Positions 58,381 through 59,030 of a stretch of 64,000 nucleotides of DNA are shown here, piece by piece (the stretch's first letter is position 1; each line of letters begins with the position of its first letter). Below the pieces are notes generated by a model. The model did not search any database. It was not told where the DNA came from and worked only from the letters and a program-made list of their open reading frames with translations. The stretch is from the NCBI RefSeq assembly GCF_003334405.1, contig NZ_QOWM01000002.1; one strand, 5' to 3'. A program made the position numbers and the translations under genes. The DNA comes from Escherichia coli. GTDB lineage: Bacteria; Pseudomonadota; Gammaproteobacteria; Enterobacterales; Enterobacteriaceae.

Positions 58381-58757
58381 GAAGCTGACCAGACAGTCGC
58401 CGCTTCGTCGTCGTCCTCTTCGGGGGAGACGGGCGGAGGGGAGGAAAGTCCGGGCTCCATAGGGCAGGGTGCCAGGTAACGCCTGGGGGGGAAACCCACG
58501 ACCAGTGCAACAGAGAGCAAACCGCCGATGGCCCGCGCAAGCGGGATCAGGTAAGGGTGAAAGGGTGCGGTAAGAGCGCACCGCGCGGCTGGTAACAGTC
58601 CGTGGCACGGTAAACTCCACCCGGAGCAAGGCCAAATAGGGGTTCATAAGGTACGGCCCGTACTGAACCCGGGTAGGCTGCTTGAGCCAGTGAGCGATTG
58701 CTGGCCTAGATGAATGACTGTCCACGACAGAACCCGGCTTATCGGTCAGTTTCACCT
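58381..58757 (+). ncRNA. rnpB: RNase P RNA component (M1 RNA)
   Basis: Starts GAAGCUGACCAGACAGUCGCCGCUUCGUCG; contains the conserved GGAAAGUCCGGGCUCC and P4 elements; TATACT -10 just upstream; 377 nt. Confidence 0.92.
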
Positions 58758-59030
58758 GATTTACGTAAAAACCCGCTTCGGCGGGTTTTTGCTTTTGGAG
58801 GGGCAGAAAGATGAATGACTGTCCACGACGCTATACCCAAAAGAAAGCGGCTTATCGGTCAGTTTCACCTGGTTTACGTAAAAACCCGCTTCGGCGGGTT
58901 TTTGCTTTTGGAGGGGCAGAAAGATGAATGACTGTCCACGACACTATACCCAAAAGAAAGCGGCTTATCGGTCAGTTTTACCTGATGTACGTAATAAACC
59001 GTTCCGGCGGGTTTCAGATTGTTGAGTGCG
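58709..59030 (+). repeat. About three tandem copies of a 101-113-bp unit starting inside the rnpB 3' end, each with a terminator hairpin
   Basis: Units begin gatgaatgactgtccacgac at about 58709, 58810 and 58923; hairpins aaaaCCCGCttcgGCGGGtttttgctttt at about 58766-58797 and 58876-58908; third copy degenerate. Confidence 0.7.

What the first reader, a model, noticed from the sequence alone, without database searches (positions are those of the whole stretch)
58709..59030. Tandem 101-113-bp repeats at the rnpB 3' end, each re-creating a terminator hairpin
Starting inside the last about 50 nt of rnpB, a unit is repeated about three times. Copies 2 and 3 carry a 12-nt insertion (ctatacccaaaagaaagcg) relative to copy 1, and copy 3 has a degenerate hairpin. 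Each copy duplicates the rnpB 3' end and its terminator, so alternative 3' ends or precursor processing are possible. It also looks like a hotspot for slippage and recombination next to the AT-rich insert.
Basis: partly seen in the sequence, partly recalled or inferred. Interest (0 to 1): 0.45.

Follow-up and report, generated by a model that had tools for sequence, protein, structure and literature searches.

The report
Known tandem repeats after rnpB
The end of the E. coli RNase P RNA gene and its transcription terminator are repeated head to tail downstream of the gene, a feature I recall was first described in 1983, and the number of copies differs between strains while related bacteria carry the same kind of repeat.

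Summary
rnpB lies at 58381-58757 (+). Its last 50 nt plus the T1 terminator form unit 1 (58708-58808, 101 nt).

These are the 113-bp repeats 3' of rnpB that I recall from Reed & Altman, PNAS 1983. I could not retrieve that paper here. K-12 has one more unit than this window.

Copy number is polymorphic. Across 5,426 complete E. coli genomes there are 1-9 matches per genome, and about one third carry no extra unit.

Units 2 and 3 are not faithful copies. A 12-nt insert and a C-to-G change disrupt the P4 3' strand, so they are pseudo-3' ends that each bring another intrinsic terminator.

The best reading is a minisatellite kept alike by unequal recombination, acting as fail-safe terminators.

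One result I could not find in the literature available here: the same insert-bearing unit follows rnpB in 65 of 66 loci from four Enterobacterales families. The insert is identical in E. coli, Salmonella and Klebsiella, whereas neutral sites between E. coli and Salmonella are 47% identical. Its role is unexplained. Coding, a conserved fold, own promoters and attachment-site origin all found no support.

The parts
58381..58757 (+). rnpB, the RNase P RNA (M1 RNA) gene. The promoter-like site GTGACA-17-TATACT lies at 58345-58373.
   Evidence: Rfam RF00010, 318.6 bits, full length; promoter scan
58708..58808 (+). Unit 1 (101 nt): the genuine last 50 nt of rnpB (J18/2, P2 3' strand, J2/4, P4 3' strand, P1 3' strand), then the linker, terminator T1 and spacer.
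58765..58796 (+). Terminator T1. The predicted hairpin is 58765-58792 (GC core 58772-58785) followed by TTTTTGCTTTT. An A-tract before and a T-tract after suggest it could work in both directions.
   Evidence: RNA fold -19.4 kcal/mol, z -4.36. The simple terminator scan missed it because the A/T tracts are absorbed into the stem.
58809..58921 (+). Unit 2 (113 nt): an insert-bearing pseudo-3' end with an intact terminator copy (T2).
58830..58847 (+). Insert segment of unit 2 (GCTATACCCAAAAGAAAG). It is a 12-nt insertion plus an altered P4 3' strand, and replaces AGAACC of rnpB.
   Evidence: alignment; the same segment occurs in 65 of 66 loci from other Enterobacterales
58878..58909 (+). Terminator T2: the same hairpin and T-tract as T1.
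   Evidence: RNA fold -19.4 kcal/mol, z -3.46
58922..59030 (+). Unit 3: an insert-bearing pseudo-3' end with a decayed terminator. This is the old distal unit shared with K-12.
   Evidence: RNA fold -5.8 kcal/mol, z +0.88; K-12 comparison
59030..59146 (.). A pair of REP (BIME-type) elements inserted between unit 3 and the fourth remnant.
   Evidence: sub-threshold Rfam matches to the REP-derived families naRNA4 (31.4 bits) and ES036 (32.7 bits); sequence reading
59146..59222 (+). Fourth, partial and degenerate copy: a P1-strand remnant, a terminator-like segment (59163-59192), the spacer, and a start-motif remnant AAGATGAATAAATATCTACG (59203-59222). In strains with no extra unit, T1 is fused directly to this spacer and remnant.
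58811..58931 (+). Two overlapping 38-codon ORFs (58811-58927 and 58815-58931), one per unit, preceded by GGAGG. Their stop codon overlaps the next unit's ATG. I judge them not to be genes.
   Evidence: ORF list; only sporadic 'hypothetical protein' annotations; not conserved in other genera, where there are non-3n indels and early stops

Best explanation
This is a minisatellite made of the 3' end of the RNase P RNA gene plus its intrinsic terminator.

Unit 1 is the real 3' end. Transcription from the rnpB promoter stops at T1, about 36-39 nt past the mature end. The precursor is then trimmed; from my recollection of the literature this involves RNase E cleavage followed by exonucleases.

The following units are pseudo-3' ends. 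They keep the P2 and P1 3' strands, but a 12-nt insert and a C-to-G change destroy the P4 3' strand. Each intact unit carries another copy of the terminator.

The array expands, contracts and is kept similar to T1 by unequal homologous recombination or replication slippage between the roughly 100-nt repeats. The short (21-nt) homology to the left of the insert makes exchanges that would put the insert into rnpB, or remove it from the copies, rare.

The most likely selected effect is fail-safe termination, possibly in both directions. That would insulate neighbouring genes from the strong stable-RNA promoter and protect rnpB from incoming transcription.

Shown here: the anatomy, the intact and decayed hairpins, the copy-number polymorphism, the within-genome similarity of units, and the wide distribution. 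Inferred: the recombination mechanism, the processing pathway, and the terminator benefit.
For: Anatomy and periodicity.

Hairpins: T1 and T2 fold at -19.4 kcal/mol and unit 3 has decayed.

Copy number: 1-9 matches per genome in 5,426 E. coli genomes, and 3,659 genomes hold a full extra unit. Locus spans differ by multiples of 113. K-12 has one more unit; O157:H7 and SE15 have none; O104:H4 has four.

Strain-specific variants are shared by neighbouring units in O104:H4, which indicates recent local duplication.

Units stay alike within a genome. Unit 1 versus unit 2 identity is 0.91-1.00 in the P1 strand and 0.74-1.00 in the linker, terminator and spacer. Between species the same segments average 0.83 and 0.63.

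One locus (Atlantibacter sp. RC6) has its second unit converted to the rnpB type, while a related species has the insert type at the same place. This shows that gene conversion occurs.

The name 'rnpB T1' and measured use of this terminator appear in PMC3643576.
Against: No expression data were available, so read-through and termination at T2 are not demonstrated.

About one third of E. coli genomes manage without extra units, and one Enterobacter record has no T1-type hairpin at all. Extra terminators are therefore dispensable.

Downstream genes are convergent in only 25 of 59 loci, so there is no special link with convergent transcription.

Termination alone does not explain why the insert sequence is conserved: it is 22/22 identical between E. 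coli, Salmonella and Klebsiella michiganensis, against 47% identity at fourfold sites of the neighbouring garK gene between E. coli and Salmonella.
Confidence: 0.5

Rival explanations
1. The insert-bearing unit is a functional element in its own right, with a sequence-specific role. For example, read-through transcripts might be cut into a small RNA. Such an RNA would have a 5' stem formed by the start motif pairing with the P1-strand copy, the insert in the apical loop (an A-rich AAAAGAAAG run), and a terminator with a U-tail. Alternatively it could be a cis-acting decoy hairpin that stops the pseudo-3' end from disturbing M1 RNA folding.
For: In 65 of 66 loci from four families the first unit is the rnpB type and all later units carry the insert. 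The insert segment is identical (22/22) in E. coli, Salmonella and K. michiganensis, while linker, terminator and spacer are 0.53-0.64 identical. Fourfold sites in garK are 47% identical between E. coli and Salmonella. Within genomes the start motif, insert and P1 copy differ 2.5-7 times less per site than the rest of the unit. Unit 2 folds into a 5' stem-loop plus terminator (-32.1 kcal/mol, z -2.5).
Against: No promoter-like site lies within or before the units, and spacers vary in length and sequence. RNAalifold finds no consensus structure in 104 units. The insert hairpin is weak on average (mean z -0.65) and essentially absent in the E. coli type. No Rfam family matches. The one candidate target tested, the rpmH-rnpA mRNA, pairs no better than background. 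One third of E. coli genomes lack the unit.
Confidence: 0.25
2. The array is a neutral minisatellite with no function. It would be a by-product of an ancient duplication, kept only by the balance of expansion and contraction.
For: Presence and absence are polymorphic within E. coli. Distal units decay. Arrays end at variable points within the last unit. Inserted DNA is amplified along with the unit in Rouxiella, which has 259-nt units.
Against: Loss of all insert-bearing units cannot be reversed within a lineage. Yet the same unit type persists in Enterobacteriaceae, Erwiniaceae, Pectobacteriaceae and Yersiniaceae. The insert is far more conserved than neutral sites.
Confidence: 0.2
3. Each unit encodes a small basic peptide: the 38-codon ORFs preceded by GGAGG. 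As I recall, Reed & Altman considered this in 1983.
For: In the window, GGAGG lies 9 nt before an ATG, there are two 38-codon ORFs per unit, and the stop overlaps the next ATG. A few genome records call them hypothetical proteins.
Against: The spacer carrying GGAGG is not conserved, even in Salmonella. Insert lengths of 21, 22 and 23 nt shift the frame, and many genera have early stops. Each ORF is preceded by a strong terminator and has no promoter.
Confidence: 0.03
4. The repeats are scars of site-specific integration at the rnpB 3' end, like the duplicated tRNA or tmRNA gene ends that flank genomic islands.
For: The DNA downstream of the array is variable and AT-rich. Arrays often end just after the start motif and are followed by unrelated DNA. 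A prophage lies about 1.2 kb downstream in one Enterobacter record.
Against: Units are only 93-135 nt in nearly all loci and carry no cargo and no integrase. No second repeat copy lies beyond the AT-rich region in the window. Phage and plasmid collections hold no genuine mobile element with the unit. The displaced copy would be expected to be the rnpB type, not the insert type.
Confidence: 0.03

Closest known systems
The 113-bp repeats in the 3' flank of E. coli rnpB (Reed & Altman, PNAS 1983, 80:5359). This is cited from memory; the paper is not in the held library.
   Same: Same locus, same 113-bp period, and the same content: the end of M1 RNA plus a terminator and short ORFs. K-12 fetched here has three 113-nt-type units plus a partial one after rnpB's own copy.
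   Different: This window's strain has one unit fewer. The population-wide copy-number range and the distribution across four families were measured here. As far as I could find, they are not part of the old description.
Tandem intrinsic terminators after stable-RNA operons, such as rrnB T1-T2. 'rnpB T1' is itself a standard terminator part (PMC3643576).
   Same: Strong GC hairpins with U-tracts stacked after a highly expressed stable-RNA gene. The likely role is fail-safe termination.
   Different: Here the extra terminators arise by duplicating a piece of the gene itself, and their number varies between strains.
Bacterial minisatellites (variable-number tandem repeat loci used for strain typing)
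   Same: Head-to-tail units of about 100 nt, copy number polymorphic among strains, units kept alike within a genome.
   Different: I found no paper linking this locus to a typing scheme. The array overlaps an essential RNA gene, and its units carry a conserved difference from the gene copy.
Duplicated 3' ends of tRNA and tmRNA genes at genomic-island integration sites
   Same: A direct repeat of the 3' end of a stable-RNA gene lying next to variable, AT-rich DNA.
   Different: There is no integrase and no cargo between the repeats. Units are tandem and about 100 nt long. The copies differ from the gene by a conserved insert.
Tandem small-RNA gene arrays, such as LhrC1-4 in Listeria or OmrA/OmrB in E. 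coli (from general knowledge)
   Same: Units of about 100 nt in tandem, each ending in an intrinsic terminator. The 5' part is conserved and the terminator varies.
   Different: Those genes have their own promoters and documented transcripts. No promoter-like sites or transcripts are known for these units.

Membership tests
E. coli rnpB 3'-flanking 113-bp repeats | The array starts inside the 3' end of rnpB and continues directly downstream | tested here: met
   rnpB is at 58381-58757. The first unit starts at 58708.
E. coli rnpB 3'-flanking 113-bp repeats | A 113-bp period, with the same sequence as in K-12 | tested here: met
   TRF period 113. The units are identical or nearly identical to those of K-12 locus L001.
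Intrinsic (Rho-independent) terminator | A GC-rich hairpin immediately followed by a U-tract | tested here: met
   Units 1 and 2 fold at -19.4 kcal/mol followed by UUUUUGCUUUU. Unit 3 does not qualify (-5.8 kcal/mol).
Intrinsic (Rho-independent) terminator | Transcripts actually end there | not testable with these tools
   No transcript data were available. Measured use of rnpB T1 as a terminator part is reported in PMC3643576.
Minisatellite (variable-number tandem repeat) | Copy number differs between strains of one species | tested here: met
   1-9 matches per genome. In an evenly spaced sample of 60 genomes the counts were 19 with 1, 14 with 2, 7 with 3, 15 with 4 and 5 with 5.
Small-RNA gene | Own promoter upstream of each unit | tested here: not met
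   No promoter-like site in 58760-59030. Spacers are short and not conserved.
Small-RNA gene | Conserved secondary structure with covariation | tested here: inconclusive
   RNAalifold finds no consensus. Single-sequence folds give a weak hairpin, mean z -0.65. A stem-loop is predicted for the E. coli unit.
Small protein gene | Reading frame preserved in related species | tested here: not met
   Insert lengths of 21, 22 and 23 nt, early stops, and a non-conserved ribosome-binding site.
Integration-site (att) duplication | An integrase and cargo DNA lie between the direct repeats | tested here: not met
   The units abut each other. No further copy exists in the window. No genuine phage or plasmid carries the unit.

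The most novel reading that the evidence does not exclude
The insert-bearing pseudo-3' end unit may be an ancient element of Enterobacterales rnpB loci that selection has maintained and that has a sequence-specific role beyond termination. One possibility is a small RNA cut from read-through transcripts. Another is a self-folding decoy that protects RNase P RNA folding. Its insert is identical from E. coli to Salmonella and Klebsiella, although neutral sites between E. coli and Salmonella are near saturation.
Probability: 0.25. Interest if true: 0.6.

Novelty: already known. Interest (0 to 1): 0.3.

Why it matters
For E. coli this is a textbook-age curiosity. It explains why the terminator is called 'rnpB T1', why this intergenic region differs in length between strains, and why short-read assemblies may break here.

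The comparative result adds something. The repeat is not an E. coli accident. It is a shared feature of at least four Enterobacterales families, and its conserved 12-nt insert has no template in the gene.

If that conservation reflects function, the locus next to one of the best-studied ribozymes hides an unstudied RNA or DNA element. If it does not, the locus is a clean natural example of tandem copies evolving together while being kept from converting an essential gene.

Tried and rejected
Coding. The ORFs exist in E. coli but are not conserved and are barely annotated.

Conserved RNA fold of the insert. RNAalifold gave no structure, and the hairpin tendency is weak and lineage-specific.

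Known RNA families. Only a partial RNase P match and REP-derived sub-threshold matches appeared.

Pairing of the insert with M1 RNA. Predicted duplexes fall on different M1 regions in different species, with no consistent site.

Pairing with the rpmH-rnpA mRNA. It was no better than background: -19.8 against a mean of -23.0 kcal/mol.

Mobile-element origin. Phage and plasmid hits are mislabelled chromosomal records. The prophage near rnpB in one Enterobacter record is not at the repeat.

Link with convergent downstream genes. Orientation is mixed, 34 co-directional against 25 convergent.

Terminator scan tool. It missed T1 and T2 because the A/T tracts extend the stem, so folding was used instead.

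Literature. Nine full-text searches and three look-ups by identifier found no open paper describing the repeats. The 1980s references are therefore from memory.

Full report
WHAT IS THERE

The window carries garK (ending at 58348), rnpB at 58381-58757 on the + strand (Rfam RF00010, 318.6 bits, full length) and, convergent, yhaC at 59258-60445. Tandem Repeats Finder reports a 113-nt period with 2.5 copies, 94% matches and score 504 at 58735-59014.

The 21-nt motif AGATGAATGACTGTCCACGAC occurs exactly three times in the 64 kb, at 58708, 58809 and 58922, with none expected by chance. This defines three units:
- Unit 1 at 58708-58808 (101 nt): the genuine last 50 nt of rnpB plus linker, terminator and spacer.
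- Unit 2 at 58809-58921 (113 nt).
- Unit 3 at 58922-~59030.

The alignment shows that units 2 and 3 carry 12 extra bases after CCACGAC. The following AGAACCCGG of rnpB reads AGAAAGCGG in them. By the Rfam alignment this stretch is the 3' strand of helix P4. The copies keep the 3' strands of P2 and P1 but not a usable P4 strand.

The hairpins of units 1 and 2 are identical and strong (-19.4 kcal/mol, z -4.4 and -3.5), and each is followed by UUUUUGCUUUU. The unit 3 hairpin has decayed (-5.8 kcal/mol, z +0.9).

Beyond unit 3 lies a pair of REP elements at 59030-59146 (sub-threshold naRNA4 and ES036 matches).

WHAT IT IS IN E. COLI

From memory, this is the array of 113-bp repeats described in the 3' flank of the M1 RNA gene by Reed and Altman (PNAS 1983), together with its short ORFs. 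The held library does not contain that paper, so I could not verify it. The terminator is in common use as 'rnpB T1' (PMC3643576).

A K-12 chromosome fetched here has the same array with one additional 113-nt unit.

Copy number is polymorphic. A 113-nt unit query matches 1-9 places per genome in 5,399 of 5,426 complete E. coli genomes, with a median of 2. Only 3,659 genomes hold a place that covers at least 80% of the unit. In an evenly spaced sample of 60 genomes, 19 have only rnpB's own copy, 14 have 2 matches, 7 have 3, 15 have 4 and 5 have 5. The spans of the whole locus differ by multiples of 113.

O157:H7 and the B2 strain SE15 have no extra unit. There, T1 is fused directly to the spacer and decayed start motif of the fourth remnant. 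This is what recombination between T1 and that remnant would produce.

O104:H4 has four extra units. Private variants are shared by neighbouring units, which marks recent local duplication. Strain H5 has a 120-nt unit whose hairpin has a longer loop resembling the T1 of E. albertii and cryptic Escherichia clades.

BEYOND E. COLI

A scan of one genome per species was run for two copies of the 17-mer GATGAATGRCTGTCCAC spaced 75-105 nt apart. It returned 66 loci. Genera included Escherichia, Citrobacter, Klebsiella, Raoultella, Enterobacter, Kosakonia, Cedecea, Pantoea, Erwinia, Pectobacterium, Serratia and Rouxiella. These belong to Enterobacteriaceae, Erwiniaceae, Pectobacteriaceae and Yersiniaceae. 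A full rnpB abuts the array in all 12 loci checked.

In 65 of the 66 loci, every unit that includes the genuine rnpB end is the rnpB type, and every later unit carries an insert at the same place. The C-to-G change is present in nearly all of them. The usual length difference is +12 or +13 nt. A Salmonella Senftenberg record found by BLAST has seven units with the E. coli-type insert.

The one exception is Atlantibacter sp. RC6, whose second unit is the rnpB type. A. hermannii has the insert type at the same place. This is best read as gene conversion.

Within a genome the units resemble that genome's own rnpB end. Unit 1 versus unit 2 identity is 0.91-1.00 in the P1 strand and 0.74-1.00 in linker, terminator and spacer. 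Between species the means are 0.83 and 0.63. The units therefore evolve together within each genome.

The insert has no template in rnpB, yet it is conserved. It is 22/22 identical between E. coli, Salmonella and K. michiganensis, and averages 0.75 identity over all species pairs. By comparison, fourfold-degenerate sites of the neighbouring garK gene are 47% identical between E. coli and Salmonella. Paralogous units within genomes differ per site by 0.018 in the start motif, 0.051 in the insert, 0.039 in the P1 copy and 0.127 in the rest.

One caution applies. The search pattern itself required two intact start motifs, so the invariance of that motif is partly an ascertainment effect. The prevalence of arrays among species also cannot be read from this scan.

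HOW IT MOST LIKELY WORKS

Transcription of rnpB ends at T1, about 36-39 nt beyond the mature end. As I recall from the literature, the precursor is cut by RNase E and trimmed by exonucleases. I did not test this here.

The extra units are dead copies of the gene's end, and each adds a terminator. Unequal recombination or slippage between the roughly 100-nt homologous stretch (P1 copy, terminator, spacer, next start motif) expands, contracts and homogenises the array. Left of the insert there is only 21 nt of homology to the gene. That would make exchanges which place the insert into rnpB, or remove it from the copies, rare.

The A-tract/T-tract hairpins could stop transcription from both sides. 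I take fail-safe termination as the likeliest benefit (confidence about 0.5).

Several facts argue against it being the whole story. One third of E. coli genomes lack the units. One Enterobacter record lacks even a T1-type hairpin. Downstream gene orientation is mixed. And termination does not require the insert to be conserved.

ALTERNATIVES TESTED

The ORFs in the window have GGAGG, a 9-nt gap and an ATG; each runs 38 codons and its stop overlaps the next ATG. They are not preserved elsewhere. The ribosome-binding spacer differs even in Salmonella. Insert lengths of 21, 22 and 23 nt break the frame, and stops appear early. Only a few records annotate them, as hypothetical proteins.

A structured RNA is not supported by RNAalifold. 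The insert tends to form a small hairpin in Serratia, Kosakonia and Pectobacterium types but hardly in the E. coli type (mean z -0.65). The E. coli unit as a whole folds into a 5' stem-loop plus terminator (z -2.5). That stem uses sequences inherited from rnpB.

No promoter-like site precedes the units, so any unit RNA would have to come from read-through. No Rfam family matches.

Pairing of the insert with M1 RNA is inconsistent across species. Pairing with the rpmH-rnpA mRNA is not better than background.

An attachment-site origin lacks an integrase, cargo and a distal repeat.

VERDICT

For E. coli the feature is already known, so the finding itself scores low.

The part worth keeping is comparative. 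The insert-bearing unit is shared across four families, and its insert is conserved well beyond neutral expectation. I could neither explain this nor find it in the accessible literature.

Noticed in passing
window 59030-59146: A pair of REP (BIME-type) palindromic elements sits between the decayed third unit and the fourth remnant. It gives sub-threshold Rfam matches to the REP-derived families naRNA4 and ES036.
   Followed up: partly
L004 (E. coli O104:H4) 1910-2890: An IS621 (IS110-family) transposase gene is inserted at the REP pair just downstream of the repeat array.
   Followed up: no
window 59258-63000; L002 (SE15): yhaC and the DNA beyond it are AT-rich (GC 0.28-0.37). This region is absent from the B2 strain SE15, where a tdcR pseudogene and tdcA follow rnpB. 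The rnpB downstream junction is therefore a variable region.
   Followed up: partly
L019 (Rouxiella aceris) 1110-1628: Units of 259 nt: an insert-bearing unit that acquired about 145 extra bases between the P1 copy and the terminator and was then duplicated as a whole.
   Followed up: no
L072 (Enterobacter roggenkampii 90-kb record labelled plasmid) 3702-5340: Here rnpB is not followed by a T1-type hairpin. It runs straight into the sequence that follows the last unit in Klebsiella and Enterobacter arrays. garK is missing upstream, and a lambdoid prophage starts about 1.2 kb downstream. The record looks like chromosomal DNA.
   Followed up: partly
L051 (contig labelled Microvirga antarctica, 289 bp, coverage 0.59): This tiny, low-coverage contig in an alphaproteobacterial assembly carries enterobacterial insert-bearing units. 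It is probably contamination.
   Followed up: no
L005 (E. coli strain H5) 1500-1619: A 120-nt unit whose terminator has a longer loop (cccgccagcgtaaaccggcggg). It resembles the T1 of E. albertii and cryptic Escherichia clades rather than the T1 of E. coli. It may be an older terminator version surviving in a copy.
   Followed up: partly
window 57122-58348: The longest ORF for garK is 408 codons, but RefSeq annotates 381 codons (1146 nt). The extra 27 N-terminal codons are probably not translated.
   Followed up: no
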